Positions 30,121 to 64,000 of a stretch of DNA of 64,000 bases are shown here, one piece after another. A model generated the notes under the pieces. That model did no database searches, was not told the DNA's origin, and saw only the letters and a list, made by a program, of their open reading frames with translations. The DNA is from an uncultured Actinomycetes bacterium. Its GTDB lineage: Bacteria; Actinomycetota; Actinomycetes; S36-B12; UBA10799. Position 1 is the stretch's first letter. Every line of letters begins with the position of its first letter. Position numbers and translations under genes: made by a program. The stretch is from contig CAZVKB010000002.1 of NCBI GenBank assembly GCA_964627505.1, forward strand, positions 3,434 through 67,433. The letters are read 5' to 3'.

Positions 30121-30225
30121 AAGTCTCCTCCTTGAAGCGTCAGGAGTTGTGACTGTAATGCACACGCCGCGCAGCTTTGTGACATCGGCCCGCTGCACGC
30201 GATCTAGGCCACATCCCCGGCGGAC

Positions 30226-46705: not shown

Positions 46706-46868
46706 GGCGTGACGCCTCCTGAAATCGCGCTCAAACTATCCCGCCAACGTATCGCCGACGCCGCTGCCGGCGCCACCGACCAAAGTCCTCACCTACATCC
46801 CACGGAGTAGGCGCTACTCCCCAGGAAGGCTCCGCAAACCCTCCGGGCGGCGCTAGCGACTCGGAGGT

Positions 46869-47435: not shown

Positions 47436-47484
47436 CCCGACCCACTTGCGCGGCTGCCGGAGGGTATGCGTAAGGCTTGCGGTC

Positions 47485-48027
47485 ATGAGTGTCACCGACC
47501 CTTCAGCAGCCGACGACGTGGTAGTTCTGCTCGATGAGCACGACCGACCCTGTGGTACCGCACCCAGGGTGAGCGTCCACACCGAGCACACTCCCCTGCA
47601 CCTGGCGTTTTCGTGCTACCTGCGCCGCGCAGATGGCAAGGTCCTGATGACCCGGCGCGCGCTGACCAAGCGCACCTGGCCGGGGGTGTGGACCAACTCC
47701 TGCTGCGGACATCCGCGACCGGGCGAGCCGATGACCGACGCCATCCGTCGCCGGTTGGCCGATGAGCTGCAAGCCAGCGCCACCGGCATCGAACTCGTGC
47801 TTGCCGATTTTCGGTACCGGGCTGTGGACGCTTCGGGAGTGGTGGAGAACGAGTTCTGTCCCGTTTATGTGGCGACGTTGGTTGATTCGGTGCACCCCGT
47901 CACTGCCGAGGTGGCTGAGATTGCATGGGTCGAACCAGCTGACGTCATGATGGTCGCCGCTCGCACGCCGTGGTTGCTGAGTCCATGGTGCGTGAGCCAG
48001 TTGGCCCAGTTGCATCGTGTCTTCTGA
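47485..48027 (+). CDS. idi: Isopentenyl-diphosphate delta-isomerase, type 1 (Nudix)
   Basis: ...HLAFSCYL...WPGVWTNSCCGHP...ENEFCPVYVA. Start at MSVTDPS. Confidence 0.9.
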   Translation: MSVTDPSAADDVVVLLDEHDRPCGTAPRVSVHTEHTPLHLAFSCYLRRADGKVLMTRRALTKRTWPGVWTNSCCGHPRPGEPMTDAIRRRLADELQASATGIELVLADFRYRAVDASGVVENEFCPVYVATLVDSVHPVTAEVAEIAWVEPADVMMVAARTPWLLSPWCVSQLAQLHRVF

Positions 48028-50663: not shown

Positions 50664-51616
50664 GGGTTCGCTCCTCGCTCTGGAGTCCGGGTTGTGGTGG
50701 GTGCAGTTGGGGTGGCTGGTGCTGTTGGAGTGGCTGGAAGTGCCATCACATGGACGTGCGGCCAGCCGGTGGGCAGCTCCGTGTGCGGAACCAATTGGGG
50801 CCGCTCCACGAGGAACATCACACCCCAATACGTGGCGAAACCGACAAACAAGCCGGCGTAGACATCCATCAGGTAGTGCTGGCGCAACATCACAGTGGCC
50901 GGCCAAATCAACGCCACCCACAGCATGAGGATCCAGGCCGTGCGCGGAATCACCCGACGCAATCGCCACAGACTGATGATCAGAATTGTGCTCCACGTGA
51001 CGTGCCCGGACGGGTAGCCATTGAAGGGGGCATCGTTGCCCCAGACAAGTTCCACCAGGGAGGCAGCAAAGCCACCCTGGGCGACCACATCCTGCGCTTG
51101 CGCGTCGCGCAGCACCTCGGTCTGGAAGAAGAAGTACGCCACGTCGAGAAAAAGTTGGCTGACGATGAGGGCTAAACCCACCGTCAGGAAGCGGCGAAAC
51201 GAACTCAACCATAGGTTCAAAGCTGGGATCACAGCCACGACGACGAAGAGACTCAGGTAGGGCAGTGCTAACAGCGGGACGAACGGAAGTTTGGCATCGA
51301 GCCAACTGCGCAACACAAAAGTGTGGGTTTGGGAGCCGGGATCCGGCACACCTGACGGTGCGGCGTCGAAGTTGGAGTCGTACGGCTGCGTGAGGACGGA
51401 TCCGGGCTCGGGTTGTGGGTCGTAGGCCCAAAACGACGGCCATCGCCACTCCGGCGGCGCGAAATTGAAGCGCTCGTAGGACACAAATACTGCTATCACT
51501 CCAAGTGCCACGAGTACGACCCCGACCCACTGGTGACGGCTGATCTGCCACCGCGGAATTGTGCTTACCGGCGTCGAAGATGACTGCGGTTGTCCCGCCG
51601 GCGGGGTGGGTGTCAT
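50660..51616 (-). CDS. PAP2-superfamily membrane protein of the sphingomyelin-synthase/Aur1-like type (PAP2_3-like)
   Basis: About 6 TM helices. YPSGHVTWS (C2) and RQHYLMDVYAGLFVGFATY (HYxxDV-type C3). No KxxxxxxRP C1 motif seen. Start set at MTPTPPAGQ. Confidence 0.75.
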   Translation of the reverse strand: MTPTPPAGQPQSSSTPVSTIPRWQISRHQWVGVVLVALGVIAVFVSYERFNFAPPEWRWPSFWAYDPQPEPGSVLTQPYDSNFDAAPSGVPDPGSQTHTFVLRSWLDAKLPFVPLLALPYLSLFVVVAVIPALNLWLSSFRRFLTVGLALIVSQLFLDVAYFFFQTEVLRDAQAQDVVAQGGFAASLVELVWGNDAPFNGYPSGHVTWSTILIISLWRLRRVIPRTAWILMLWVALIWPATVMLRQHYLMDVYAGLFVGFATYWGVMFLVERPQLVPHTELPTGWPHVHVMALPATPTAPATPTAPTTTRTPERGANP

Positions 51617-51761
51617 GCGAGACTCCTCACGTGCATGTGAATATTGTTCCACTCTAGGGATATCAAAATATCCATGTAGTGGTACACAAGATTTCATAGA
51701 AAACTCTTCGTGCTACTTTTATCGCGTCCCCGAACGTGCGATCACTCAACGGAGGTGTCCT

Positions 51762-52274
51762 ATGGGACTGTCTGACATGGCCCGCGAAACCGCTCAGGAA
51801 CAATTGCAGAAGGCACAGACGGATCTCACGCGTCACACCTCTGAACTAGAGGCAGCGCAGGCCCGGGTGGCCGTGGCCCAAAAAGCCATTGATGACCGGT
51901 CGCAAGCCGCAGCATCGTCTTCCGACGCCACCATCGCGGATTTGCAGGTGCAACTCAGCGACGCCGAAGCCACTCTGGAAGAGGCTCAGGCATCCGCCAA
52001 TTTGGCCGACACGGTGACCAGCCCCGGCCTTATCCATGACGCTACCGCACCCATCCGCCAGTCCGCCGATGCCAAGGTGACGTCGGCACAGGCTGCAGTG
52101 GATGACATCAAGGCCAAGATTTCCGAGGCGCAGGCAGTCGCGGTCACCCCGGTAGCGGCGACCTCACCCGAACTCACGTCTGCGCAGACAGACGTCACTG
52201 TTGCCGAGGCGAAGATCGCGTCAGCCAAGACCCGGGTTTCACTCGCCCAGAAGGCGCTCGACGCGCTGGGCTAG
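51762..52274 (+). CDS. Hypothetical Ala/Gln-rich coiled-coil-like protein
   Basis: ATG at 51762 preceded by GGAGG. MGLSDMARETAQEQLQKAQTDLTRHTSELEAAQARVAVAQKAI... No family recognised. Confidence 0.55.
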   Translation: MGLSDMARETAQEQLQKAQTDLTRHTSELEAAQARVAVAQKAIDDRSQAAASSSDATIADLQVQLSDAEATLEEAQASANLADTVTSPGLIHDATAPIRQSADAKVTSAQAAVDDIKAKISEAQAVAVTPVAATSPELTSAQTDVTVAEAKIASAKTRVSLAQKALDALG

Positions 52275-52355
52275 TGCTGGCCTTCTACAGCATCAGGTAA
52301 TTCCGCACGTTTGCAGCGTGGGAACCCATGTCCTGAAGCCGGTGCCCGCACCAAA

Positions 52356-52943
52356 TCAGTTGCGGGCGTCTCGCTTCGCCTGTTTCCGCGCGCCATGCGC
52401 GCGTTGCACGGCCCGCTGCTTGGCAGAAATCGGATTGCGCACGGACTGGTCGCGGCCTGGCGCGGCACCCCCCACGTCCGGACTCGTGGTCATGGCAGCG
52501 TCCGCACCCGACGATTTCGGGTGCTTGCGGCCCGCCTTGGCCGCGCGCGCCGCCGCCAATCGCTCCTGCCGCAACTCCGCCGCACTCTGCTCGGCCAGCA
52601 CGGCCAGTCGCGCGCTCACCCGCGACAACGCGATCTCGAATGCCTCGGCCTTCTTGCGGGATCGCTTGTTCTTCGGCCCTGCCTTGCCGCGCCCACCGTG
52701 CTGGTGCACCCCTTTTGCGGCCTTGCGCCGATATTGCCCAACATACTTGTTGCGGGCCCGCCGAATCCGTCGGTGGAGCTCCACCACGTCGTCCTCATTG
52801 AGCAGTTCGAGCGTTGCGGGCTCGGTCTCGGCCACCAACAGCCGCTCGGTGACATTGAGCGTGGACAGCAGGGATGCCTCCATGAAAGAGCTCCGTTCCG
52901 CAAGGTGGTGGGTAGCGTGGCTGGAAGTCTTGAGAATAGCCAC
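52356..52943 (-). CDS. Hypothetical highly basic protein
   Basis: ORF with a Lys/Arg-rich centre (…RRIRRARNKYVGQYRRKAAKGVHQHGGRGKAGPKNKRSRKKAEA…). The start may be the Met at 52883. No family recognised. Confidence 0.45.
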   Translation of the reverse strand: MAILKTSSHATHHLAERSSFMEASLLSTLNVTERLLVAETEPATLELLNEDDVVELHRRIRRARNKYVGQYRRKAAKGVHQHGGRGKAGPKNKRSRKKAEAFEIALSRVSARLAVLAEQSAAELRQERLAAARAAKAGRKHPKSSGADAAMTTSPDVGGAAPGRDQSVRNPISAKQRAVQRAHGARKQAKRDARN

Positions 52944-52970
52944 ACCGATTGCTGTGCGCGGATCCAGGGA

Positions 52971-54233
52971 TCATGCCTCAGACATCAGCTCGCCACTCAG
53001 CTTCCGCCCTCGCTGCGCCACCACCACCAGCGGCACTGCCAGCACAATCAACACGGCGGCAGCAACCGACATCCGCACCCAATCGTCCCCCGCGCCAGCC
53101 ACGGCCGCACCCAAGACCGGGGCGAGAAACCCACCCACCAAGCTCGCTCCGCCGACCACAGCGGCCAGGCGGCCAGCCGGATCGAGGTCCGCCGCGGCGG
53201 CAAACATCAAAGGCGTGAAACAGTAATAGGCCAGATTCACGGCCAGTAATCCGAGAAAGAACACTCCGCCGTTCGGCGCCAGTCCCATCAACAAATTACC
53301 GACTGCCACGATCAGAATGGCCCCAGGCAGCACCGGCCACCTACCCACCCACCCGCGCGTAACGGCGGCGAACAAGGCTCCTGCCAGTCCAAGGATTTGC
53401 GTGATCCCGAGCGCTTGTACAGTCCGCTCGCTACTCAAACCTGCAACCTGGCCGATCTCCGCAGCAAAGGTCCACATGGCGAAGTTCCCGATGCTCAGTG
53501 CCAGCATCGCGAGTACGAGGAGCGCGGCCGGACCGCGCAACCATGGCTGGACACCTGCAGGCTCGGATTCCACCCCACTGGGAGCCACCGATCGAGCAGC
53601 GGGCTGGAACCGGATCGCAGCCCGCGATCCCGGGGTGCTTAAGGCAACCCCCAACGCCACCACCACGATGCCCGCCGCCGCGGTAAACAGCCCCCAGAAC
53701 GGTGATGCCGAGGCCAGCGTGGGCAAACCCGCGAGCAGCGCCGAGCCGATGAGCACCGTCACCACTGTGGCGACACTGAATGCTCGCACTGAGTTGCGAG
53801 CGTGCGACAGGGTGGCATTGCCCGTGGCGGAGGCCACCCCCGCGCCAAGTCCTACCGCGACTTGGGCTCCGATGACAGCCGGCGTCGCCGTGACCACGCT
53901 GGCCACGCTCCAACCCAGCAATGACAAGGTCATGCCCGAAACCCCCAGGAGAAGTCGATTGCTGCGAGCCAACAGCGGCACAATCCCCAGCGCCCCTACC
54001 GCCAGTGATCCCTGCGTGACGCTGACCACGGTGCCGGCCAACGCCGTGCTCAACCCGAGGTCGCTTTTCAGGTAGGACGACAGCAGCGGGGCCAGAAACA
54101 CCGGCAACAAACTCACCACCAGCAGGCTGATGGCCGCCGAAGTCACCTGGACGTCGCTGGGACGCGGTGCGGCATTGCTCACGCCTAAACTCCTTGAGTT
54201 GTGCCCAATCTGGGAATATAGTTCAATCCTCAA
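52971..54233 (-). CDS. MFS transporter
   Basis: About 12 hydrophobic segments across 420 aa, with two 6-TM halves. Start uncertain. Confidence 0.7.
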   Translation of the reverse strand: MRIELYSQIGHNSRSLGVSNAAPRPSDVQVTSAAISLLVVSLLPVFLAPLLSSYLKSDLGLSTALAGTVVSVTQGSLAVGALGIVPLLARSNRLLLGVSGMTLSLLGWSVASVVTATPAVIGAQVAVGLGAGVASATGNATLSHARNSVRAFSVATVVTVLIGSALLAGLPTLASASPFWGLFTAAAGIVVVALGVALSTPGSRAAIRFQPAARSVAPSGVESEPAGVQPWLRGPAALLVLAMLALSIGNFAMWTFAAEIGQVAGLSSERTVQALGITQILGLAGALFAAVTRGWVGRWPVLPGAILIVAVGNLLMGLAPNGGVFFLGLLAVNLAYYCFTPLMFAAAADLDPAGRLAAVVGGASLVGGFLAPVLGAAVAGAGDDWVRMSVAAAVLIVLAVPLVVVAQRGRKLSGELMSEA

Positions 54234-54400
54234 CCACTTTTGCAGGTGATACGCAGCCTACTCACACGCTATTCCCCGCCCGAGGAGCCATCTTGGCCAC
54301 CACACCCAGGTCGACCCCTGGCGCCGCTTTCGACACGTTCCTGCGCGAACTCGCACCTGCTGCCCACCAACGCCGGCCGTGGACTCCGGAGGCAGGCCCG

Positions 54401-55168
54401 ATGCCGGCGGTGTTCCTCAGCCACGGCGCACCACCGCTTTTCGACGACGCCGAATGGATGTCCGAATTGTTCACGTGGGCGCAGTCGTGGCCGCAACCCA
54501 CCGGCATCGTCATCATCAGCGCACATTGGGAGGCCGCGCCGCCGGCGCTATCAGCCACCGCTGCACAGACGCCCCTGGTGTATGACTTCGGTGGATTCGC
54601 GCAGCGCTATTACTCGATGACCTACCCCACGCCGGATGCCAGCCAGCTCACGGCTGATGTGCGGGCCGTCATGCCGGATGGCACCTCACTGCATCAGCAT
54701 TCCGCACGGGGGCTGGACCATGGGGCTTGGGTGCCGCTGAAGGTGATGTTCCCGGATGCGGATGTACCTGTCGTGCAGTTGAGTCTGCCCAGCGATGCAC
54801 CGGCACAACTGCTGACGCTCGGAGCTCGGTTGCGGCCGCTGCGCGAATCAGGCGTGTTAGTGATCGGTTCCGGTTTCGCTACCCACGGGTTGCCGTTCCT
54901 GACCCGCGAGATGTTCGTGGACAATCGACCGGCACAGTGGTCCCGCGACTTCGACGCCTGGACCGCCTCGGCGCTGGCTGCCGGCGATCTCGACACCTTG
55001 GTCAATTTCCGTACCGCCCCTGGCATGCCCTACGCCCACCCCACAGTGGAGCACTTCACTCCGATGTTCGTTGCCTTGGGCGCGGCCAGCTCGAGCGCCG
55101 CCCCACTCACCACTGCGATTACGGGCTTCGCCATGGGGTTGGCCAAACGCTCCTTCGAGGTGTACTAA
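54401..55168 (+). CDS. Class III extradiol ring-cleavage dioxygenase (LigB/YgiD, 4,5-DOPA dioxygenase-like)
   Basis: MPAVFLSHGAPP..., IVIISAHWE, GLDHGAWVPL, VIGSGFATHG. Start set at the Met matching the YgiD-family N-terminus. Confidence 0.82.
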   Translation: MPAVFLSHGAPPLFDDAEWMSELFTWAQSWPQPTGIVIISAHWEAAPPALSATAAQTPLVYDFGGFAQRYYSMTYPTPDASQLTADVRAVMPDGTSLHQHSARGLDHGAWVPLKVMFPDADVPVVQLSLPSDAPAQLLTLGARLRPLRESGVLVIGSGFATHGLPFLTREMFVDNRPAQWSRDFDAWTASALAAGDLDTLVNFRTAPGMPYAHPTVEHFTPMFVALGAASSSAAPLTTAITGFAMGLAKRSFEVY

Positions 55169-55197: not shown

Positions 55198-56004
55198 ATG
55201 TCTGACCCTGAGGTGCCGGGACGCCACAGCTCCGATGTGCTCGATGCTATTTGGGAGAAAGTTGCCGATAAGCCCGAACACTCAGCCAGTGCCCAAGTGC
55301 TGTTTCGCGCCAAAGCCCTCAAGCAGCTCGATGTCGCCGATGAGCTGGACAACCAACTGCCACTAGTCTCCCGGCGCAGTTGGCTGTTGCTGGTTGGGGT
55401 CGCACTGTTAGTCGCGGCGCTGTTCCTCTGGGCATCGTTGACCCCGAGTGTCACGAGCATCGCCGCTGCCGGTCGGATCACTGCCGCTCCCGGGGCAACG
55501 CCGGTCGTCACTCCGGTGGGTGGGGTGATGGCAGCTGAACTCGTCACCGTCGGCACGGTCGTGCAACCAGGACAAACCGTGTCCACGCTGCTCGTGGCGG
55601 ATGGCGAAACACCGATCAAGGCAGTCGGCGGTGGCACCGTGTGGCAGGTGTTGGCCACCACCGGTGAGGCCGTGTCGGCCGGAGCGACCGTGATCACATT
55701 GCTCCCGCCCGGCAGCGAGACCTCGGCTCTGCTGGCTGTCCCCGAGACCCAAGCTTTCGCGATCCGTCCGGGCATGACAGTCGACGTGATCGCCGGCGGC
55801 CAGGTGCGCGGCGAGGTCACCGCCCTCAGCGCCCCCCTCCCAGCTGTGGACGCGGGTCAGCGCACTGGCCTAGCCCTCTCGCCGGCCGAAAACTACGTCC
55901 TTGTGACGGTTGCCATGAACAGCCCATTGCCTGCCGGGACTGCCGCCACCGGCCAAGTGATCTTGTCGAACAGCACAGTGTTTGAGCGGGTGCTCGGCGT
56001 ATGA
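55198..56004 (+). CDS. HlyD-family / NHLM-bacteriocin-system-type secretion (membrane fusion) protein, short form
   Basis: LFRAKALKQLDVADELDNQLPLVSRRSWLLLVGVALLVAALFLWASL...GRI matches the characteristic N-terminus of RiPP-export HlyD proteins. One TM plus a beta-rich periplasmic part. 268 aa. Confidence 0.8.
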   Translation: MSDPEVPGRHSSDVLDAIWEKVADKPEHSASAQVLFRAKALKQLDVADELDNQLPLVSRRSWLLLVGVALLVAALFLWASLTPSVTSIAAAGRITAAPGATPVVTPVGGVMAAELVTVGTVVQPGQTVSTLLVADGETPIKAVGGGTVWQVLATTGEAVSAGATVITLLPPGSETSALLAVPETQAFAIRPGMTVDVIAGGQVRGEVTALSAPLPAVDAGQRTGLALSPAENYVLVTVAMNSPLPAGTAATGQVILSNSTVFERVLGV

Positions 56005-58187
56005 CCACTACCGCTGCCGACTCACCCACCACGACAAAGCGCCCGCGCCGACGACGCCGCACGCCGGTGCCCGCTGTGCTCCAGATGGAGGTGACCGAAT
56101 GCGGTGCCGCGAGCCTGGGCATGGTGCTGGCGCACTACGGCAAGTTCGTGTCGCTGGAGGACCTGCGAATCACCTGCGGCGTGGCTCGGGATGGGTCCAC
56201 CGCCCGCAACATTTACGCAGCTGCGCGTGCCTACGGTCTGGAAGTACGTGCCTATCGGCGGGAACCCGCGAACCTCAAAGACCTCACCTTCCCGCTCATT
56301 GTGCACTGGCGCTTTGCCCACTTCCTGGTCGTGGAGGGCTGGTATCCCGGCGGGTGGTATCTCAACGACCCGGCGATGGGGCCGCGCCGGTGCGACGATC
56401 AGGAGTTTGATGAGTGCTTCACGGGTGTTGTCCTGGAGTTCACTCCCGGTCCCGACTTCCTCCCTGGCGGCTCCCGGCCAGGCGTGCTCGGGCGACTGCT
56501 TCGAGCGGCGGGAAACATCAACCCGATCCTGACCTATGTCGCCATGCTGGCGCTGCTGCTGCTGGTGCCGACGCTGGTGGTCCCGCAAATCGTGCGCTTG
56601 TTCGGCAACCAGTTGGCCGGCGCAGCGGGACTCGCAGCATCGGTCGCCGTCGTTGGATTGCTGATGGCCACCGGTGTGCAAGCGGCGCTGCTGTGGCTGC
56701 AAGGTTCACTCTCGGTCAAGATGGCCACAAAAGTGTCGGTCCGGTTGGGATCGGCCATGGTGTACCGACTCTTGCGATTGCCCGCCGCTTTCCACGCGCA
56801 GCGCGGGGCGGCGGCCCTCACGCAGCGGGCGGTTCTCGCCGATCAGTTGAGCAACGGCGTCTCCGCGTTGGCTGTGACCGCGGCCACAGGCATCCTGACG
56901 TCCGCGGCCGGGGCGGTGGCGCTGGTGATTGTGGATCCCCCCACCGGGGTGCTGGCAATCGTCATCGGGCTCGCTGCCGCGTGGTCGATGAATTGGACGA
57001 TGAAGCGGTCCCGAGACGAAGCCGCCCGGGTGGTGCGGGAAACGGTCGAAGTCGGCGCAGTGATGTCCTCCTCGCTCAACCAGATCGAGTCGATCAAGGC
57101 CGGCGGGAACGAAGACGGGATCATCGCCCGTGGTCTGGCGGCGCAGAATCGGCTCTTGGAAGCCCAACAGCGCATCGGCGTGCGCTCGTTACTGCTCACC
57201 CTGTTGCCCAGTGTTCTCACCGGCACAGGCACAGTGCTGATTGCTGCGCTTGGAGCTTGGCGGGTCTTGCAGAACGCCGTGAGTCCGGGCACGTTTTTGG
57301 CCATCCTCACGTTGTCGGCCGTCGTGATCGCGCCGCTCACGCAGGTAGTCATCGCTTTGGACATGGCCCAGACGCTGCGGGCCACGCTCGATCAAGTTGA
57401 CGATGTGTTGCGCACACCCGAGGACCCCGAGTACACCGATGTACCTTCCGGTGACTTGCCGGCCGTCTTACAGGGCGACTTGCGCCTGGTCAATGTGACG
57501 TTCGGCTACAGCCGCCGGTCGTCACCGGTGATCACCGATCTCAACCTGCACATCGCCCCCGGACATCGCGTCGCGCTGGTGGGTCCAAGTGGCTGCGGCA
57601 AGTCCACTGCCGCAAAACTGGTCACCGGTTTGTACGCGCCGTGGTCCGGCGAAGTGTTGATCGACGGCAAACCCCGCAGCGCCCACGCCCGCGATGTCCT
57701 CACCGATCAGATTGCGTTGGTCGATCAGGACGTATCTGTCTTCGCAGGCACCTTCCGGGACAATGTCACGCTGTGGGATCCGACCATTCCCGATGAGGAC
57801 GTGCGGGCAGCCATCCTGGATGCCCAACTCGGACCCGACGTCGCCCGTCGACCTGGCGGGCTGGACGCAGTGCTCACAGAAGGTGGCGCCGATCTGTCCG
57901 GCGGACAGCGGCAACGACTGGAAATTGCGCGCGCTCTGGTCCGAAATCCGGCGCTGCTTGTGATGGACGAGGCCACCAGCGCACTGGATCCGCTCACCGA
58001 GCAAGCCATCGATGAAGCCGTCCGACGCCGCGGCATCTCCTGCCTGGTCATCGCCCATCGACTCTCGACCATCCGCGACAGCGATGAGATCGTGGTACTG
58101 AGCGAGGGCTCCGTCGTGGAGCGGGGCACTCATGAACAATTGCTCGCCGCAGGCGGCTCCTACGCGGCCCTGGTGGGATCTGCATGA
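56001..58187 (+). CDS. C39 peptidase-domain ABC transporter (bacteriocin/RiPP leader-cleaving exporter; peptidase/permease/ATPase)
   Basis: C39 residues are intact: Q-x5-C (VLQMEVTECGAASLGMV), HFLVVEG, NDPAMG. Six-TM domain. Walker A GPSGCGKST, signature LSGGQRQRLEIARAL, Walker B LLVMDEATSALD. ATGA overlap upstream. Confidence 0.9.
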   Translation: MTTTAADSPTTTKRPRRRRRTPVPAVLQMEVTECGAASLGMVLAHYGKFVSLEDLRITCGVARDGSTARNIYAAARAYGLEVRAYRREPANLKDLTFPLIVHWRFAHFLVVEGWYPGGWYLNDPAMGPRRCDDQEFDECFTGVVLEFTPGPDFLPGGSRPGVLGRLLRAAGNINPILTYVAMLALLLLVPTLVVPQIVRLFGNQLAGAAGLAASVAVVGLLMATGVQAALLWLQGSLSVKMATKVSVRLGSAMVYRLLRLPAAFHAQRGAAALTQRAVLADQLSNGVSALAVTAATGILTSAAGAVALVIVDPPTGVLAIVIGLAAAWSMNWTMKRSRDEAARVVRETVEVGAVMSSSLNQIESIKAGGNEDGIIARGLAAQNRLLEAQQRIGVRSLLLTLLPSVLTGTGTVLIAALGAWRVLQNAVSPGTFLAILTLSAVVIAPLTQVVIALDMAQTLRATLDQVDDVLRTPEDPEYTDVPSGDLPAVLQGDLRLVNVTFGYSRRSSPVITDLNLHIAPGHRVALVGPSGCGKSTAAKLVTGLYAPWSGEVLIDGKPRSAHARDVLTDQIALVDQDVSVFAGTFRDNVTLWDPTIPDEDVRAAILDAQLGPDVARRPGGLDAVLTEGGADLSGGQRQRLEIARALVRNPALLVMDEATSALDPLTEQAIDEAVRRRGISCLVIAHRLSTIRDSDEIVVLSEGSVVERGTHEQLLAAGGSYAALVGSA

Positions 58188-61042
58188 CCAGCGAGGATGC
58201 CGCCGCACCGCTCACGGCTGCCGCCTCCGTGACCTCAGTGACTGCAGCCGACATCGTCGAGTTGGCTGCGGGGGACGCCGTTGTGGTCGTGTCCGGGCAG
58301 GCTCTGGTTTTCGTGCAGGATCCCGGTGGACGCCGGATCCGACTGGCCACCGTAAATGTCGGCGAAGCAATCGTCGGGTGCGACCCGATGCGCTCAGGCG
58401 CCCGCATGATTGCTACCGGGCTGCCGGGAACCACTGTGCGGCACGTCCAGGTCGGGCCAGACACGCCCGCGGCACTGCTGCTTGGCTGGATTAGCACGTT
58501 GGGGCGCGCGATTTCCGCGGGCCGCTGGCCCCAACGCTTGCTGGCTTTCGACCAGGAACTGTCCATGCTGGCACCCGGCCAACACATTGGTGTAGGCCGG
58601 GACGTCAGTCAGATGGTATGGGCACAGCTCACCGCTGGCACTGCCACTCTCTGTGACGAGCCGGCTGCCGAAATCACCACCTTCGACCCCGCCCTCCCCC
58701 TGCCAGCGGGCACATGGCTTACCACCGGCATGCGGGCACGGGTGCGGCCGGTATCCGCTCCTGCGCACCTGGCGGAATGGTCGGAGCCGCTGGCTGTGCT
58801 GGGTCGGTTGACGATCTCGACGATGCTGGCGCGGCGCCAGAAAAGGGATCAAATAGCAGTAGCACGGTTGGAGACCCGGGAGGCCGTGTCCGATGCCGCC
58901 ACCCAAGAGGCTGTCGATCTGTTGGGCTCAGCAGTCGGCGGGAAGCAACGCCTCCCCACCCTGTCTGACCAGCGCCGCGCTGCGGAACTGGCCACCGCGG
59001 CCGAGGTGGCGCGGGCGACGGGTTTGGTCCTCGAAGACGATGCTTTGTCGCGGGCCGCAGCAGAGGTGGAGTCGGGTCGCGAGCCCGCCGCCGCGGTCGC
59101 TGATGCCTGCAACGCCCGGGTTCGACCGGTGACGTTGGCGGCGGGCTGGTGGCAGCGGGAAGGTCCACCAGTGGTGGCGCGCGTGACTCCGCTCAACGCC
59201 GGCCCCGCGCAACCAACAGCAGTCGTGTGGCGGCGCGGCTGGGTACTGCTAGATCCGCAGACGGGTGTCACCACGAGCGTCGATGATGACGTTGCGGACC
59301 GGGTGGATCGACACGCCATCGAGATGCTCCCCGTGTTGCCACCTAGCCCAAGCTCACTGCCGGATCTCTTGAGATTGGCGCTGCGGGGCAGTCGCGCCGA
59401 ACTGGTCGTTGTGTGCGGAATCACTGCGCTGTTGGCCGGCTTGTCGTTCGTCACGCCTTTTCTCATGGGCCAACTCGCCAACCTATTTCTGGCATTCGCC
59501 CCCACGAGCGCCTACCTCGGACTGTTCGGCGCATTGCTGCTGGTGATGTTCGCCGGGACCACCTGGCAAGCTGTGCGCGCGTTGGCCTTGTTACGAGCCC
59601 GCTCCCAAGCTGCGGTCATCGCAGCCGGAGCAGTGTGGGAGCGCGTGCTGCGCCAACCGGCCACATGGCACGCGAAGCACCCACTGGGGGAACGTAGCGC
59701 CCAGGCCTACGCTGTAAACAACGCATCGGGGGCGTTGCCGGACGAAACCATCGCCCGGCTGCTGGATGTCACTATTGTGATCGGCAGCCTCGCAGCAGTT
59801 GCCACCACCAATTCCGCGTTGCTGTTTGGTCTTATGGCTGTGCTTGCGGCGCAATTACTTGTCACGTTCTGGATGCTGCGGGCGTCCGCCCTGCGGGCAG
59901 GAGAACGAGTCTCCGCCGCAGCTACCGCTACCGGTCGACTGATGGAGATTTTGAAATCTGTCAATCGTTTGCAGGTCGCCGGCGCCGAGTCGCGGGCCTT
60001 TCTGCGTTGGGCGCAGGTGCAGGCGCATTTCGCCCGGGCCGACCAGCGGTTGCGCCGGATCACGATGGCGCAAGGCCTGGTGATCGCCGTGTGGCCGATC
60101 CTGACTTTGGCGGTGGTGATCGCCATGACGTCGATCACAGCTGCCAGCTTCGGTGAGTTCGTCACCGCCCAGACAGCAGCCACCGGGGCCACGATGGCCG
60201 TGGCTGCCATGATGCTGTCCGCCAATGGCGCGCTCGTGGCTCGACAGTCGTTACGCCAGGCCGCCCCCGTCCTGGAGTCAGTACCGGAAGGTGGCGCGGA
60301 TGGAGCCCTGCCGGGGGTGCTCAGCGGCGGATTTGAGGTTCAAGACCTGGTGTTCCGCTACGAACCAACGCTGCCCGCCGCATTGGAGAACGTCAGTTTC
60401 GCCATCGCACCCGGCGAACATGTCGCGATTGTGGGGCCTTCCGGGTGCGGCAAGACCACCCTGATGCGCATCCTGCTTGGCCTGGAGGAACCCGAGTCGG
60501 GGGTCATCACAGTGGATGGCCGGGATCTCGCAGCGCTGAATCGCCCAGCCGTGCGACGCCAAATCGGCTCCGTATTGCAGTCGTCCACGCTGTTGCCGTG
60601 TTCGATTAAGGACAACATCACGATGGGCCGTTCCATGAGTCACGACGAGGTGTGGGCAGCCTTGGAACTGGCAGCGGTAGCCGATGATGTCCGGGCCATG
60701 GCCATGGGGATTGACACTCCGGTGACCGATGGTGGGGGCACCCTCTCGGGAGGGCAACGCCAACGGGTTTTGATCGCACGGGCGCTGGCGGGCAACCCCC
60801 GCATGCTGATCCTGGACGAAGCCACGAGTGCGCTGGACAATCTCACCCAGGCGGCGGTGGTGGAGGCCCTGCAGAACTTGGCGATCACCAGGGTGGTCGT
60901 GGCGCACCGGCTGTCCACGATCAGGCAGGCCGACCGGATCATTGTGATGGCAGACGGTCGCGTGGTCGACCAGGGCACCTACGACGAACTAGTGGCTCGA
61001 CAGGGCGCGTTTCGAGAACTCGCGATGCGGCAGCAGGCGTGA
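58184..61042 (+). CDS. ABC transporter permease/ATPase with ~400-aa N-terminal cytoplasmic extension (NHLP-type bacteriocin export partner)
   Basis: 952 aa. TM region starts near residue 410. Walker A GPSGCGKTT, LSGGQRQRVLIARAL, MLILDEATSALD. ATGA overlap with the upstream gene. Confidence 0.88.
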   Translation: MTSEDAAAPLTAAASVTSVTAADIVELAAGDAVVVVSGQALVFVQDPGGRRIRLATVNVGEAIVGCDPMRSGARMIATGLPGTTVRHVQVGPDTPAALLLGWISTLGRAISAGRWPQRLLAFDQELSMLAPGQHIGVGRDVSQMVWAQLTAGTATLCDEPAAEITTFDPALPLPAGTWLTTGMRARVRPVSAPAHLAEWSEPLAVLGRLTISTMLARRQKRDQIAVARLETREAVSDAATQEAVDLLGSAVGGKQRLPTLSDQRRAAELATAAEVARATGLVLEDDALSRAAAEVESGREPAAAVADACNARVRPVTLAAGWWQREGPPVVARVTPLNAGPAQPTAVVWRRGWVLLDPQTGVTTSVDDDVADRVDRHAIEMLPVLPPSPSSLPDLLRLALRGSRAELVVVCGITALLAGLSFVTPFLMGQLANLFLAFAPTSAYLGLFGALLLVMFAGTTWQAVRALALLRARSQAAVIAAGAVWERVLRQPATWHAKHPLGERSAQAYAVNNASGALPDETIARLLDVTIVIGSLAAVATTNSALLFGLMAVLAAQLLVTFWMLRASALRAGERVSAAATATGRLMEILKSVNRLQVAGAESRAFLRWAQVQAHFARADQRLRRITMAQGLVIAVWPILTLAVVIAMTSITAASFGEFVTAQTAATGATMAVAAMMLSANGALVARQSLRQAAPVLESVPEGGADGALPGVLSGGFEVQDLVFRYEPTLPAALENVSFAIAPGEHVAIVGPSGCGKTTLMRILLGLEEPESGVITVDGRDLAALNRPAVRRQIGSVLQSSTLLPCSIKDNITMGRSMSHDEVWAALELAAVADDVRAMAMGIDTPVTDGGGTLSGGQRQRVLIARALAGNPRMLILDEATSALDNLTQAAVVEALQNLAITRVVVAHRLSTIRQADRIIVMADGRVVDQGTYDELVARQGAFRELAMRQQA

Positions 61043-63324
61043 GCTTCGACGTCGGTGGTGGGCCCGGCGATGCCGCAATTCTGGTGGGTTGGCGGGCCGA
61101 CCGGGTAGCGCTGGTCACTCCGGACGATCACGAAGTGTGGCTGTTCGGCGGGCCCGGGCCCGTCCGGCTGGCCGGTCGCGGCGCTGGCCCGTTAGCGCGG
61201 GCGATCACCGGCACCCAGGCCCTGGCCGCGGCAATCGCGGAAGCTGTCGCGGGTGGGATGTCCCCAACCGAGGCCGATCGGATTGCCCAGAAGTGGTGGA
61301 CAGCCGGTCACATTGGGCCCGCCGTTCCAGATGAGTTGGCGAGCGTCACTGCTGACCCTGCGGTAGCCGTGCTGGTGGTCAATATCGATGATCGAGCCGC
61401 GGACCGTTTCCTGGCCACTTGGGCGCATACCGGGATGTCGATTGCTGCAGGCGCCCCGGATCTCACCGTGCTGCTGGTGGCTGACGTACTGTCGGTCACC
61501 ACAGTCGCGCCAAGCCTCACGGGACCGACGATCGCCGTTGCTATTCACGGCGAACGCATGATGATCAGCCCGGTGCTGACCGCACCGGACGCACCCAAAG
61601 TAGGGGCATGCGTGCAATGCCTGATATCCCGGGTGGCTCAACGTCGGCAACCAGAACTCTTTGCGGCTGCCCGGGTCGGTCGTGACACCCCGCCCTTGGC
61701 CCCCGCACCCCGACCGGGAAGCGAAGCGGATCGTCGGGCCGCTGCCGCGATTCCGATCGCGACCGGGATTGCAGCGCATCTGGCACGTGCCTGGGCTAAC
61801 CCAGGCCACGCCCCGGAACCGCCACACGTCACCACTATCGCGGCGCACAGCGGTGCAATATCCAGACATGAGCTCGTCGCCGTTGCGGGCTGTCCACGAT
61901 GTGATCCACACGGTTCATCGGTGATGTCGCGGCATGGCTCGGGCATGTCCCCACTGACCGATCCGGATCCGCCAGTTGACGGAAAACCCGGTCCCGACTT
62001 CGACAGTTCCAGCACCGGGGCGTTTCGGGTGGTCGATCCAGCTGAAACGTGGGCACGGTATGCCCATCTGATCAGCGATGCGGTTGGGGTGGTGCCGTAT
62101 GTCGAAGCCTCAGGTATGCCGCAGTTACGGGCGTTCACAGCAGGCATGAACGTCGCGGCAACCGGCGACGTGGGACACCTGCATTCCCGTCTACGTGCGG
62201 TGGCCAGCGGTAAAGGGCTCACCCTCACCGGCGCGCGCACCGGGGCATTGGCCGAGGCGCTGGAGCGCGAGAGCCTCCGCGCCCGCGGCGATGAGCCGTA
62301 CCTGCGAACCTGCATGAGGAACTTAGACGGAGCGATCCACCCCAATCGCATCCAACTCTTCAGCGACGCACAGCTGCACCGACAAGCGCAACTGGCCGCG
62401 TTGGGCCTCGCCGACCCACTCACCAGCCATGGGTTTCATCGGGTGCCTTTGCCGTTCGACGAAACCGCAGAGCACGACTGGAGCGCTGTGACAAACCTGC
62501 GCACAGGTGCGCAAGCATGGGTTCCCAGCGCGCTGATGTGGTTGGGATGGCCAGATACCCCGGTGGGCTACCCACAGGGCTGTTCGAATGGCGCCGCTGC
62601 CGGCAACACCATCGCCGAGGCGTTGTTGGCGGGGCTGCTGGAACTGGTGGAACGTGATGCGGTGGCGCTGTGGTGGTATCCGCGTTGTCATCGGCCAGCA
62701 TTCGATGTGCTCTCCTGGGACGATCCGCGGATAGCGGCCGCTGCAGCACCGCAACATGCCCTGGGTACGCGTTTTTGGGTGCTGGACCTCACCACCGACA
62801 TCGGTATTCCTACCGCTGCCGCGATCGCCACCGGAGTCGGACCGAAACCGGAAGTCCCTCTGGTGGGTTTCGGCGCCCACCTGGACCCAGCGTTGGCGGT
62901 GGTGCGCGCGCTGACCGAACTCGCCCAGGTGCAAGCTCCAATCTCACAATTCTCGCCCGCGGAGTTTGCGCAGTTTCCTGGCGAAGCCGAGCGGCGCTGG
63001 TTTGCCTCGGTGACCCCCGAAGCCGAACCCTGGCTGGTACCAACCGGGGTGGTCGAGCCACCGGATGCACCGACGTATACCGATGTCCGAGACGCTTTGA
63101 CCGATGCAGTCGCTCGGGTGCACGATTGCGGGGTGGACGTGTGGTGGGCAGACTGCACCCGTCCGGATCTCGGACTACCAGTGGTGCGCACCTACGCACC
63201 TGGGCTGCGCCACTTCTGGGCCCGGTTCGCACCTGGTCGGCTCTACGATGTTCCACCCGCACTTGGGTGGTGCGCACCGGGATACGGCGAGGCCGACCTC
63301 AACCCGTTGCCGATGATCCTATGA
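61039..63324 (+). CDS. Fused RiPP cyclodehydratase: E1-like/leader-docking N-terminal domains plus a YcaO domain
   Basis: N-terminal part has GRGAGPLA, and CVQCLISRV...CPRCDP (CxxC...CxxC, as in E1-like Zn sites). YcaO part has ASGKGLTLTGARTGALAEALERES, CSNGAAAGNTIAEALLAGLLELVERDAVALWWY and a Pro-containing C-terminus ...NPLPMIL. GTGA overlap upstream. Confidence 0.85.
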   Translation: MSFDVGGGPGDAAILVGWRADRVALVTPDDHEVWLFGGPGPVRLAGRGAGPLARAITGTQALAAAIAEAVAGGMSPTEADRIAQKWWTAGHIGPAVPDELASVTADPAVAVLVVNIDDRAADRFLATWAHTGMSIAAGAPDLTVLLVADVLSVTTVAPSLTGPTIAVAIHGERMMISPVLTAPDAPKVGACVQCLISRVAQRRQPELFAAARVGRDTPPLAPAPRPGSEADRRAAAAIPIATGIAAHLARAWANPGHAPEPPHVTTIAAHSGAISRHELVAVAGCPRCDPHGSSVMSRHGSGMSPLTDPDPPVDGKPGPDFDSSSTGAFRVVDPAETWARYAHLISDAVGVVPYVEASGMPQLRAFTAGMNVAATGDVGHLHSRLRAVASGKGLTLTGARTGALAEALERESLRARGDEPYLRTCMRNLDGAIHPNRIQLFSDAQLHRQAQLAALGLADPLTSHGFHRVPLPFDETAEHDWSAVTNLRTGAQAWVPSALMWLGWPDTPVGYPQGCSNGAAAGNTIAEALLAGLLELVERDAVALWWYPRCHRPAFDVLSWDDPRIAAAAAPQHALGTRFWVLDLTTDIGIPTAAAIATGVGPKPEVPLVGFGAHLDPALAVVRALTELAQVQAPISQFSPAEFAQFPGEAERRWFASVTPEAEPWLVPTGVVEPPDAPTYTDVRDALTDAVARVHDCGVDVWWADCTRPDLGLPVVRTYAPGLRHFWARFAPGRLYDVPPALGWCAPGYGEADLNPLPMIL

Positions 63325-64000
63325 GTCCGCCAGCTGAGGTCCGGCCCACGCAACCCGACCCCGCGGCTGCTGGCGACCAGTCACTGACAACGGCGATGGC
63401 TGCCATCTTGGGCCGGATTCCCGAGACCTTGGTCGATACGTCTGCTCGGCGCAGCGTGCTACGAGTTGCGGCGGCACTGCCAGCATCGCTCACCCAGGGA
63501 CCGCTGGGTCTGGAATTGCGATTGGCCGGCCCGACCCGCGTGGATGTATTCGCCGCAGCGACCCCACGCACCACGTCGTTTCAAGGTCTGCTGGCATGTC
63601 TATCCCCGCGATCGTCAGGAGACCAACCACAGGGGTCCGCTTGGGCTGACCCCCAACGGGCTGACGACCTCGCTACGGTGCTGCGGCAGTGGCAGGCAGG
63701 CACGGGAGCCATCAACACGGTCGCCCGGTACCTGCTCGTGGAGGCCGACGCTCCGCCGGACCCGGAATCACAACTAGCTGTTCCCAGTATCTTTCTGGCC
63801 CCCCGGGCACCTCGTGACATTTTTCGTCCCGGTCAGCCGCCCAACGCCTTTCATCGGCACGTGGAGGCCACTGTGCTGGCCGCAGCGGAACTCAGCGGAG
63901 TGTGGCCTGACCCGGCCACGGCAGAACAGTTGGCTGCCGTAGTGCAAGTGCTCGCAGACAGCAGCACCGACGGGGGGCCTGGCGTCGGCGACATCTTTGC
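63321..64000 (+). CDS. Hypothetical protein (5' partial, continues beyond the window), translationally coupled to the cyclodehydratase
   Basis: Not in the ORF track (no stop in the window). The ATG at 63321 overlaps the YcaO-gene TGA (ATGA). My translation is open for all 226 codons: MSPPAEVRPTQPDPAAAGDQSLTTAMAAILGRIPETLVDTSARRSVLRVAAALPASLTQGPLGLELRLAGPTRVDVFAAATPRTTSF... No motif recognised. Confidence 0.65.
   Translation, partial: MSPPAEVRPTQPDPAAAGDQSLTTAMAAILGRIPETLVDTSARRSVLRVAAALPASLTQGPLGLELRLAGPTRVDVFAAATPRTTSFQGLLACLSPRSSGDQPQGSAWADPQRADDLATVLRQWQAGTGAINTVARYLLVEADAPPDPESQLAVPSIFLAPRAPRDIFRPGQPPNAFHRHVEATVLAAAELSGVWPDPATAEQLAAVVQVLADSSTDGGPGVGDIF

What the first reader, a model, noticed from the sequence alone, without database searches (positions are those of the whole stretch)
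55198..64000. Five-gene, translationally coupled RiPP locus: NHLP-style export triad plus fused YcaO cyclodehydratase, with no precursor or dehydrogenase in view
Five ORFs (55198-56004, 56001-58187, 58184-61042, 61039-63324, 63321->) are chained by 4-nt ATGA/GTGA overlaps, so they form one operon. The first three match the triad described for nitrile-hydratase-leader/Nif11-type bacteriocin systems: a HlyD-like protein, a C39-peptidase ABC exporter and a long ABC partner. The fourth is a fused E1-like/YcaO azoline-forming-type cyclodehydratase. The C39 catalytic Gln/Cys/His/Asp all appear intact, which predicts a double-glycine-type leader on the substrate. No plausible small precursor ORF lies in any intergenic space here, because there are essentially no gaps. 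No SagB-type FMN dehydrogenase is recognisable. The gene order is export first, modification last. The product, its precursor and the role of the fifth gene are therefore unknown from this window. High-GC actinobacterial examples of this architecture are, to my knowledge, poorly characterised. This is the best candidate for something new in the window.
Basis: partly seen in the sequence, partly recalled or inferred. Interest (0 to 1): 0.75.

Follow-up and report, generated by a model that had tools for sequence, protein, structure and literature searches.

The report
Terpene-decorated, thiazole-forming ribosomal peptide operon
The five overlapping genes are the front part of an eight-gene operon in an uncultured sewage actinobacterium that most likely makes a short ribosomal peptide carrying thiazole rings and a cyclised terpene on a tryptophan, a hybrid chemistry first reported in 2024, and the peptide's own gene is not nearby.

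Summary
Five ORFs are chained by ATGA/ATGA/GTGA/ATGA overlaps. They encode a short HlyD-like adaptor, a C39-peptidase ABC exporter (Gln28/Cys34/His107/Asp123), a long second ABC protein and a fused E1-like/YcaO cyclodehydratase. The 'missing' dehydrogenase is a window-edge artefact. Near-identical sewage-metagenome contigs continue the operon with gene 5 (379 aa), gene 6 (310 aa) and a SagB-family dehydrogenase. The main new result concerns genes 5 and 6, which match no Pfam or NCBIfam family. High-confidence models place gene 5 in the ABBA aromatic prenyltransferase fold. Gene 6 is a single-domain class II terpene cyclase with an invariant DxDD motif. The two occur fused in some metagenomic proteins. 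All 11 NHLP-leader precursors found beside homologues carry a Trp at core position 3 or 4. This matches the prenyltransferase–cyclase maturases (NctPC) that geranylgeranylate Trp and cyclise the chain (Hubrich et al. 2024, known here only through a review). The variant features are the split enzyme pair and the pairing with YcaO/SagB. No precursor lies within 55 kb upstream or 4.4 kb downstream. pN/pS of 0.06–0.29 indicates the genes are maintained. Verdict: new variant of a known kind; interest 0.6.

The parts
54194..54222 (+). Only sigma-70-like promoter match near the operon (TTGAGT-17-TATAGT). It lies upstream of the LigB-type gene in the divergent gap facing the MFS gene.
   Evidence: This is a consensus match only (1 found; 0.4 expected in shuffles).
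54293..55168 (+). LigB-type extradiol dioxygenase gene. It may be co-transcribed with the operon but is not part of the conserved gene set.
   Evidence: PF02900 LigB, 92 bits. Its stop is 29 nt from the gene 1 ATG, with no promoter-like or terminator-like site between them. It is present in the near-identical contig L002 but absent from relatives L003 and L005.
55198..56004 (+). Gene 1: short (268 aa) membrane-anchored HlyD-like adaptor.
   Evidence: HlyD_3, 34 bits. TIGR03794 matches only profile positions 6-89 of 421 (45 bits, cut-off 156). A transmembrane segment (SWLLLVGVALLVAALFLWASL) is visible in the translation.
56001..58187 (+). Gene 2: C39 peptidase / permease / ATPase exporter, predicted to cut the leader after Gly-Gly and export the product.
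   Evidence: Peptidase_C39 115 bits, ABC_membrane, ABC_tran. TIGR03796 scores 788 bits over positions 2-709 of 710 (cut-off 853). Gln28, Cys34, His107 and Asp123 are present. Full-length matches to PCAT1 (4ry2) and ComA (8hf7). pN/pS 0.06-0.13.
58184..61042 (+). Gene 3: second ABC permease/ATPase (952 aa) with an unassigned 268-aa N-terminal extension.
   Evidence: TIGR03797, 565 bits over residues 269-950 (cut-off 709). The N-terminal 269 aa has no Pfam hit. pN/pS 0.06-0.11.
61039..63324 (+). Gene 4: fused E1-like leader-binding domain and YcaO cyclodehydratase. It is predicted to convert core Cys to thiazoline.
   Evidence: PF02624, 254 bits (residues 390-724). TIGR03882, 47.3 bits (cut-off 36.9; residues 163-352). 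TIGR03604, 186 bits (cut-off 219). Closest solved: LynD 2.4e-76, TruD, MusD. pN/pS 0.17-0.27.
63321..64000 (+). Gene 5, first 226 of 379 codons: ABBA-fold (PT-barrel) aromatic prenyltransferase. It is predicted to attach a polyprenyl group to the core Trp.
   Evidence: No Pfam or NCBIfam hit. The AF2 model of the full-length 99%-identical protein has pLDDT 91.5, pTM 0.90 and ten strands in five alpha-beta-beta-alpha repeats. The top 39 Foldseek PDB hits are all ABBA prenyltransferases, including FamD1, DMATS1, AmbP3, EpzP, CloQ, 6-DMATS, LimF, PatF and KgpF. It occurs fused to the gene 6 homologue in P0188, P0235 and P0236.

Best explanation
The finding is the first five genes of an eight-gene operon: HlyD-like adaptor, C39-ABC, ABC2, E1-YcaO, prenyltransferase, terpene cyclase and SagB dehydrogenase, perhaps preceded by a co-transcribed LigB-type gene. 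It matures and exports a short NHLP-leader ribosomal peptide. Proposed mechanism (enzyme types are shown; chemistry is inferred): the E1-like/RRE part of gene 4 binds the structured NHLP leader, and its YcaO domain uses ATP to cyclodehydrate core cysteines to thiazolines. The SagB/ThcOx-like flavoprotein, two genes past the window end, oxidises them to thiazoles. Gene 5, an ABBA prenyltransferase, alkylates the invariant Trp at core position 3 or 4 with a polyprenyl diphosphate; C20 is likely by analogy with NctPC. Gene 6, a monodomain class II cyclase, protonates the terminal double bond through its invariant DxDD aspartate and cyclises the chain to a polycyclic terpenoid. The C39 domain of gene 2 then cuts after the ...VAGG motif, and the two ABC proteins with the short adaptor export the lipophilic product. 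In this lineage the precursor gene(s) lie elsewhere in the genome.
For: Operon structure. Export and YcaO families. Operon continuation in contigs 98-99% identical at the DNA level (L002, L006-L009), including a SagB gene with TIGR03605 at 106 bits (cut-off 78.4). Gene 5 ABBA fold. Gene 6 class II cyclase fold: pLDDT 95.8; TMq 0.78 to drimenol synthase AsDMS and 0.73-0.75 to MstE. D94-x-D96-D97 is invariant in 46 homologues and lines up with squalene-hopene cyclase PDVDDTA. Natural gene 5-gene 6 fusions. Gene order YcaO-PT-TC is conserved in L003, L005 and L012. The precursors tested from L003 and L005 pass TIGR03793 (57-62 bits, cut-off 50.9). All 11 precursors next to PT/TC homologues have Trp at core position 3 or 4. 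The two precursors in L001, which has the YcaO and exporters but no PT/TC, have no Trp. Cys content tracks YcaO presence: 1-4 Cys per core in loci with YcaO, 0-2 in loci without. Precedent: NctPC is an ABBA PT domain fused to an MstE-like cyclase domain that geranylgeranylates Trp and then cyclises the chain (review PMC13290415, citing Hubrich et al. 2024). The genes are maintained: pN/pS 0.06-0.29.
Against: No precursor gene was found for this organism. None lies in the 64-kb window or in the 4.4 kb past SagB in L008, so the substrate and its Trp and Cys content are extrapolated from relatives with 50-55% identical enzymes. The rSAM, sulfotransferase and DUF2332 genes that accompany PT/TC in most relatives are absent here. 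Enzyme functions rest on predicted folds and motifs, with only 8-22% identity to solved structures. PT TM-scores are moderate (0.42-0.57). The prenyl donor, attachment site and order of steps are not known. All three export proteins score below NCBIfam's curated cut-offs. I could not obtain the NctPC sequence, so homology to it, as opposed to analogy, is untested.
Confidence: 0.62

Rival explanations
1. This is a plain NHLP-type linear azole peptide (TOMM) system. Genes 5 and 6 would be accessory or scaffolding proteins that add no terpene chemistry to the peptide.
For: YcaO, SagB and the export set are the only parts with sequence-family support. A characterised NHLP YcaO/oxidase pair (MprC/MprD) needs nothing more to make thiazoles (PMC12455567).
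Against: Genes 5 and 6 have confident prenyltransferase and terpene cyclase folds and an invariant DxDD motif. They co-occur with NHLP precursors even where YcaO and the exporters are absent, as in L011 and L018-L020. Trp is invariant only in precursors next to PT/TC.
Confidence: 0.12
2. Genes 5 and 6 make a small-molecule meroterpenoid, in the manner of MstE, and merely sit in the same operon as a RiPP system.
For: The closest structural relatives of both proteins act on small molecules: FamD1, AmbP3, CloQ, MstE and drimenol synthase. A LigB-type aromatic ring dioxygenase lies 29 nt upstream.
Against: The pair is translationally coupled between YcaO and SagB. The only conserved neighbours across relatives are NHLP precursors and peptide-modifying enzymes. 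No aromatic-acid or polyketide biosynthesis genes are conserved with it. LigB is lineage-specific. Peptide-modifying ABBA PTs (LimF, PatF, KgpF) are also among the structural hits.
Confidence: 0.1
3. The cluster in this lineage is a remnant. It has lost its precursor, rSAM, sulfotransferase and DUF2332 genes and makes no product.
For: No precursor lies within -55 or +4.4 kb. Genes present in most relatives are missing.
Against: All seven ORFs are intact and keep the family-invariant residues. Strain-level pN/pS is 0.06-0.29 across ABC1, ABC2, YcaO and PT.
Confidence: 0.12

Closest known systems
NctPC-type prenyltransferase-cyclase RiPP maturases (Hubrich et al. [quoted passage not shown]
   Same: An ABBA-barrel prenyltransferase with low similarity to cyanobactin PTs is combined with an MstE-like monodomain class II cyclase. 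The target is Trp in a ribosomal peptide. Fused forms of the family found here exist (P0188, P0235, P0236).
   Different: Here the two activities are separate, adjacent genes. They are embedded between a YcaO cyclodehydratase and a SagB dehydrogenase and preceded by an NHLP-type export set. Sequence relatedness to NctPC could not be tested. Whether the published nct cluster has YcaO genes is unknown to me.
MprC/MprD NHLP-leader azole system (PMC12455567)
   Same: An NHLP leader is recognised by an RRE-containing YcaO cyclodehydratase, and an FMN oxidase then gives thiazoles. Relatives' leaders show a similarly spaced Leu pair just before the cleavage site (DLELVAGG), which may correspond to the L(X)4L motif described for MprE; I did not test this.
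   Different: The text of that paper read here mentions no prenyltransferase or cyclase. Cores here are much shorter (10-19 aa) and centred on an invariant Trp.
NHLP/Nif11 bacteriocin export system, TIGR03794/03796/03797 (Haft, Basu & Mitchell 2010, cited; NHLP/Nif11 TOMM group of Cox et al. 2015, PMC4603692)
   Same: The same three-component layout is present, and these models are the best NCBIfam hits. The YcaO groups with cyanobactin-type D proteins, as Cox et al. describe.
   Different: All three proteins fall below the curated equivalog cut-offs. The adaptor is 268 aa rather than about 420 aa. ABC2 has an extra 268-aa N-terminal region. No NHLP precursor is nearby.
Cyanobactin pathways (LynD/TruD heterocyclase, ThcOx oxidase, F-family prenyltransferases)
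   Same: The closest solved YcaO relatives are LynD and TruD. The SagB protein has a ThcOx-type N-terminal domain. An ABBA PT acts on a peptide.
   Different: No PatA/PatG proteases or macrocyclase are present. The leader is NHLP and cut by a C39-ABC. The PT has no detectable sequence similarity to F-family PTs. A terpene cyclase is present.
MstE, monodomain class II terpene cyclase of merosterolic acid biosynthesis (PDB 6sbb and related entries)
   Same: Similar size (about 310-350 aa), a single alpha/alpha-barrel domain, and action on a prenyl chain already attached to an aromatic ring. TM 0.73-0.75.
   Different: Only 18-20% identity. MstE's substrate is a small-molecule prenylated benzoate, not a peptide.

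Membership tests
NHLP/Nif11-type bacteriocin export system | C39 peptidase-ABC fusion matching TIGR03796 at the curated cut-off | tested here: not met
   Best hit and full length (positions 2-709 of 710), but 788.1 bits against a cut-off of 853.3.
NHLP/Nif11-type bacteriocin export system | Second ABC subunit matching TIGR03797 at the curated cut-off | tested here: not met
   Best hit, 564.9 bits against a cut-off of 709.4. The match covers residues 269-950 only.
NHLP/Nif11-type bacteriocin export system | HlyD-family secretion protein matching TIGR03794 | tested here: not met
   44.7 bits against a cut-off of 156.2, covering only profile positions 6-89 of 421. Pfam HlyD_3 is passed (34.4 bits, cut-off 22.2).
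NHLP/Nif11-type bacteriocin export system | Intact C39 catalytic residues (Gln, Cys, His, Asp) | tested here: met
   Gln28, Cys34, His107 and Asp123 read directly from the translation. Peptidase_C39 scores 115 bits.
NHLP/Nif11-type bacteriocin export system | NHLP (TIGR03793) or Nif11 precursor with a Gly-Gly cleavage site encoded with the system | tested here: not met
   None in the window, L002 or L008. Met in relatives: the precursors tested from L003 and L005 score 57-62 bits against a cut-off of 50.9. Those of L011, L012, L018 and L021 were identified by the custom precursor HMM or by inspection.
Azol(in)e-forming TOMM/LAP machinery | YcaO domain with an E1-like/RRE partner (fused here) | tested here: met
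   PF02624 253.7 bits. TIGR03882 47.3 bits (cut-off 36.9). TIGR03604 185.8 bits is below its cut-off of 219.25. LynD and TruD are the closest solved structures.
Azol(in)e-forming TOMM/LAP machinery | SagB-type FMN dehydrogenase | tested here: met
   Not in the window. It is present two genes downstream in 98-99% identical contigs, with TIGR03605 at 106.2 bits (cut-off 78.4), plus Nitroreductase and ThcOx domains.
Azol(in)e-forming TOMM/LAP machinery | Cys/Ser/Thr-bearing core peptide | not testable with these tools
   The precursor of this organism was not found. Relatives with a YcaO have 1-4 Cys per core.
Prenyltransferase-cyclase RiPP maturases (NctPC type) | ABBA (alpha-beta-beta-alpha barrel) prenyltransferase | tested here: met
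   AF2 pLDDT 91.5 with ten barrel strands. The top 39 Foldseek hits are all ABBA PTs, probability 0.84-1.0. This is fold-level evidence only; no sequence family matches.
Prenyltransferase-cyclase RiPP maturases (NctPC type) | MstE-like monodomain class II cyclase with a catalytic DxDD motif | tested here: met
   AF2 pLDDT 95.8. TMq 0.73-0.79 to AsDMS and MstE. D94, D96 and D97 are invariant in 46 sequences. The gene lies just outside the window.
Prenyltransferase-cyclase RiPP maturases (NctPC type) | P and C domains fused in one polypeptide | tested here: not met
   They are separate adjacent genes in this lineage (L002 12283-13422 and 13423-14355). Fused forms occur in relatives P0188, P0235 and P0236.
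Prenyltransferase-cyclase RiPP maturases (NctPC type) | Trp acceptor in the core peptide | tested here: inconclusive
   Trp is present in 11 of 11 precursors next to homologues and in 0 of 2 in the PT/TC-less locus L001. The precursor of this organism is unknown.
Prenyltransferase-cyclase RiPP maturases (NctPC type) | Sequence homology to NctPC; C20 donor; cyclised product | not testable with these tools
   The primary paper and the sequence are not held.
Cyanobactin pathway | PatA/PatG-type subtilisin proteases and macrocyclase | tested here: not met
   No such domain is among the called genes of the locus or its extensions.

The most novel reading that the evidence does not exclude
This would be an undescribed RiPP subclass in which one short NHLP-led core (consensus x-x-Cys-Trp-x-x-Cys...) receives two modifications. 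One is YcaO/SagB thiazole formation, including on the Cys directly before the Trp. The other is polyprenylation and class II cyclisation of that Trp by a split prenyltransferase/cyclase pair. The prenyltransferase belongs to a sequence family of only about a dozen 50%-identity clusters among 1.84 billion proteins. In this Mycobacteriales-like lineage the substrate would be encoded in trans.
Probability: 0.4. Interest if true: 0.75.

Novelty: new variant of a known kind. Interest (0 to 1): 0.6.

Why it matters
Cyclised terpene groups on ribosomal peptides were reported only in 2024, and few examples are characterised. This locus and its relatives suggest the chemistry also exists as a split enzyme pair. 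They also suggest it is combined, in uncultured actinobacteria from sewage and lakes, with thiazole formation and a dedicated leader-cleaving exporter. Genes 5 and 6 match none of the Pfam or NCBIfam models searched here, so searches with those libraries alone would not flag the prenyltransferase/cyclase pair; I did not run a dedicated RiPP or BGC mining tool. The conserved x-x-Cys-Trp core and short product length (10-19 residues) make the predicted product easy to test by heterologous expression. The example also carries two practical lessons: a 'missing' tailoring enzyme can be a window-edge artefact, and an unannotated gene in a RiPP operon deserves a structure prediction.

Tried and rejected
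- Exact look-ups of the window's own YcaO, ABC2 and SagB proteins found no contigs, although the proteins are in the collection on a 71,134-nt NCBI contig.
- The genome-contig scan gave only one distant locus, L001 (37% identity).
- GC3-based gene calling did not discriminate coding ORFs in this 65% GC genome, so I used a greedy longest-ORF map instead.
- Intergenic gaps of the window hold rpsO but no precursor-like ORF.
- Pfam and NCBIfam gave nothing for gene 5 and only a sub-threshold SQHop_cyclase_C hit for gene 6.
- A gene 5 profile against PDB sequences gave nothing useful.
- hhalign of the gene 5 profile against the N-terminal halves of other cyclase fusions (P0330, P0278) found no relation, so those carry a different P domain.
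- Name look-ups for the fusion proteins returned only 'hypothetical protein'.
- The primary paper by Hubrich et al. 2024 is not held in the library.
- I considered that the assembly breaks about 350 nt after SagB (L002, L006, L007) marked tandem precursor repeats. I rejected this because L008 and L009 read through into a DUF4436 gene.

Full report
**1. The observation**

A fifth frame opens at 63321 and runs off the window. The junction sequences are ATGA, ATGA, GTGA and ATGA, so every start codon overlaps the preceding TGA stop.

- Gene 1 has a HlyD_3 domain and an N-terminal match to TIGR03794.
- Gene 2 has Peptidase_C39, ABC_membrane and ABC_tran. TIGR03796 is its best, end-to-end hit.
- Gene 3 has TIGR03797 as best hit.
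- Gene 4 has a YcaO domain (254 bits) after a TIGR03882 leader-binding/E1-like region that passes its cut-off.

The C39 residues Gln28, Cys34, His107 and Asp123 are present. One caveat applies: all three export proteins score below NCBIfam's curated equivalog cut-offs (788 vs 853, 565 vs 709, 45 vs 156 bits). They are therefore relatives of the NHLP export set, not certified members. The closest solved YcaO structures are the cyanobactin heterocyclases LynD, TruD and MusD. Gene 2 aligns full length to PCAT1 and ComA.

**2. What lies beyond the window**

The window's proteins are on record from a 71,134-nt NCBI contig that the position index does not serve. Sewage-metagenome contigs 98-99% identical at the DNA level (L002, L006-L009) carry the same locus. 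They show that the operon continues as follows.
- Gene 5 is 379 aa.
- Gene 6 is 310 aa and starts one base after the gene 5 stop.
- Gene 7 is 422 aa and overlaps gene 6 by 4 nt.

Gene 7 passes TIGR03605 (SagB family, 106 bits against a cut-off of 78.4) and has Nitroreductase and ThcOx domains. The 'missing dehydrogenase' is therefore a window-edge artefact. L008 extends 4.4 kb further and shows a DUF4436 membrane protein, an unassigned 499-aa protein, a TetR regulator and one more gene. Its end corresponds to window coordinate of about 71,090. That is close to the length of the source contig, so the source contig probably ends there too (inference).

**3. Genes 5 and 6**

Neither protein matches any Pfam or NCBIfam family. 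Gene 6 gives only a sub-threshold SQHop_cyclase_C hit. About 50 homologues of each exist, nearly all from metagenomes and all unnamed.

*Gene 5.* An AlphaFold2 model built on 49 sequences has pLDDT 91.5 and pTM 0.90. It shows ten strands in five alpha-beta-beta-alpha repeats. Its top 39 Foldseek matches in the PDB are all ABBA aromatic prenyltransferases. They include the indole prenyltransferases 6-DMATS and IptA and the peptide prenyltransferases LimF, PatF and KgpF. Invariant Arg, Lys, His, Tyr and acidic residues sit on the barrel strands. That pattern fits a diphosphate/Mg site, but this is inference.

*Gene 6.* The model has pLDDT 95.8. It matches the class II cyclase domain of drimenol synthase (TMq 0.78), the monodomain cyclase MstE (0.73-0.75) and small squalene-hopene-cyclase-like proteins. 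A profile of the family finds AstC, SsDMS and squalene-hopene cyclase in PDB sequences. The motif D94-T-D96-D97, within PPDTDDSAMCALAL, is invariant across 46 homologues. It lines up with the catalytic PDVDDTA of squalene-hopene cyclase (a weak local alignment; the motif identity is directly visible).

*Fusion.* P0188 (657 aa) is a natural fusion of the two proteins, 47% identical to gene 6 over its C-terminal half. An exhaustive search of 1.84 billion representative proteins found two more such fusions, P0235 and P0236. It found only about a dozen clusters for the prenyltransferase half. The cyclase half has several hundred relatives.

**4. The substrate**

Loci with 50-55% identical enzymes keep the order YcaO-PT-TC (L003, L005, L010, L012). 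L011, which also has the ABC pair, has PT-TC without a YcaO. In L003, L005, L011 and L012 a sulfotransferase follows, with an rSAM, a DUF2332 gene or both. These loci carry NHLP precursors on the opposite strand. The precursors tested from L003 and L005 pass TIGR03793 (57-62 bits against a cut-off of 50.9).

The cores that follow ...VAGG are listed below.

| Locus | YcaO in locus | Core(s) |
|---|---|---|
| L003 | yes | GACWDNCNCGV |
| L005 | yes | EMCWGNCGNCAP; NIRWTNVCGFR |
| L012 | yes | DMCWSHGCALCKVN; GVCWDDCAGCTC; GECWGHAEMCQL |
| L011 | no | DTCWADSTGSIP |
| L018 ('Ca. Contendobacter' MAG) | no, and no exporters | VCWSNCSDMGP |
| L021 (fused PT-TC) | none in view | ISWIAGSKTPVSQKPASGY; ADWFSDPNSPLRGW; IDWLNNSSAP |

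Trp sits at core position 3 or 4 in 11 of 11 precursors. The Nanopelagicales locus L001 has related exporters, YcaO and SagB but no PT/TC. Instead it has a second YcaO and a TfuA protein, and its cores (SKACCMV, GSCCTLSCAT) lack Trp. Cys counts are 1-4 per core where a YcaO is present and 0-2 where it is not. The numbers are small, but both patterns point the same way: Trp goes with PT/TC and Cys goes with YcaO.

**5. No precursor here**

Three searches found nothing in the 64-kb window or in L002 or L008: tblastn with three precursors, an HMM built from nine precursors run over all six-frame segments, and a GG-x-x-x-W motif scan. The gaps in a greedy ORF map hold only rpsO and noise.

The cluster is nevertheless maintained. 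Between the window and five near-identical strains, pN/pS is 0.06-0.13 for ABC1, 0.06-0.11 for ABC2, 0.17-0.27 for YcaO and 0.15-0.29 for the PT fragment. The precursor is therefore most likely encoded elsewhere.

**6. Comparison with what is known**

A 2026 review (PMC13290415) summarises Hubrich et al. 2024 (Chem 10:3224). [quoted passage not shown] It transfers a C20 geranylgeranyl group to Trp and then cyclises it. ChrPC does the same with a trans-IDS-like P domain. The kind of chemistry inferred here is thus already known.

I could not read the primary paper or obtain the NctPC sequence. Whether gene 5 is homologous to the NctPC P domain is therefore open, and so is whether YcaO-containing clusters were already catalogued. 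Other cyclase fusions in the representative search have N-terminal halves with no detectable relation to gene 5.

The NHLP-YcaO-oxidase part has a characterised counterpart in MprC/MprD (PMC12455567). It falls in the NHLP/Nif11 group of Cox et al. 2015 (PMC4603692).

**7. Context**

The window is chromosomal. It holds ribF, nrnA-like, infB, nusA, proS, ppc, ispG, an AftD-type arabinofuranosyltransferase, a PorA porin, rpsA and gcvP. AftD and PorA point to a Mycobacteriales-like actinobacterium (an inference from my knowledge of where these two families occur). The S15 cluster includes a MAG named 'Actinomycetota bacterium'.

A LigB-type dioxygenase gene ends 29 nt before gene 1, with no promoter or terminator signal between them. 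The only promoter-like site lies upstream of LigB. LigB is not conserved in relatives.

**8. Verdict**

The locus is best described as an NHLP-leader, azole-forming and terpene-cyclising RiPP operon with a split prenyltransferase/cyclase pair. It is a new variant of a kind described in 2024. Enzyme identities are well supported at fold level. The chemistry, the prenyl donor and the substrate in this organism are inferred.

Noticed in passing
window 54293-55168 and 54194-54222: A LigB-type extradiol dioxygenase gene ends 29 nt before gene 1. There is no promoter-like or terminator-like site between them, and the only promoter-like match lies upstream of LigB. It may be co-transcribed with the RiPP operon in this lineage, but it is absent from relatives L003 and L005.
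   Followed up: partly
window 58184-58990: The second ABC protein has a 268-aa N-terminal region that lies outside the TIGR03797 model and has no Pfam hit. Homologues in L001, L003 and L005 are equally long (950-979 aa).
   Followed up: partly
window 55198-56004: The HlyD-like adaptor is only 268 aa (255 aa in L003), whereas the TIGR03794 model is 421 positions long and the L005 homologue is 422 aa. It appears to lack the long helical hairpin.
   Followed up: no
window about 46700-52950: This stretch has lower GC (0.59-0.61 around 49.5-52 kb). Its longest ORFs (46731-47591, 48017-49402, 49392-51551, 51561-52274, 52356-52943) have no Pfam hits. It could be a foreign or poorly called region directly upstream of the MFS/LigB/RiPP block.
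   Followed up: no
L002, L006 and L007 ends (about window 66990-67063 equivalents): Contigs from three separate metagenome assemblies (L002, L006, L007) end within about 70 nt of each other, roughly 330-400 nt after the SagB stop and inside a DUF4436 gene. L008 and L009 read through. This suggests a strain-variable junction, not a repeat.
   Followed up: partly
L001 4089-11898: A Nanopelagicales MAG locus has a fused E1-YcaO, a second stand-alone YcaO, a TfuA protein (a thioamide-type pair), two NHLP-like precursors with CC-containing cores, SagB, and the two ABC genes on the opposite strand. It has no PT/TC pair.
   Followed up: partly
L018-L020 10001-15740: A minimal version of the module (PT, TC, sulfotransferase, DUF2332, rSAM, one precursor) sits in a MAG labelled 'Candidatus Contendobacter sp.' (GCA_020890935.1). 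It has no YcaO and no ABC/HlyD genes, and a pentapeptide-repeat protein lies beside it. By my own knowledge Contendobacter is gammaproteobacterial, so the module would not be confined to actinobacteria; I did not check that taxonomy or the binning.
   Followed up: partly
L003 16731-22120: Next to the L003 cluster are an fn3-domain protein and a class II lanthipeptide synthetase (DUF4135 plus LANC_like). They flank the NHLP precursor, so that precursor family may be shared between maturases.
   Followed up: no
window 17082-18230 and 21362-25180: The window holds ispG (MEP pathway) and an AftD-type GT-C arabinofuranosyltransferase, and a PorA porin gene lies at 28933-30198. These are markers of a mycolata-type cell envelope. 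No polyprenyl diphosphate synthase gene is near the operon.
   Followed up: no
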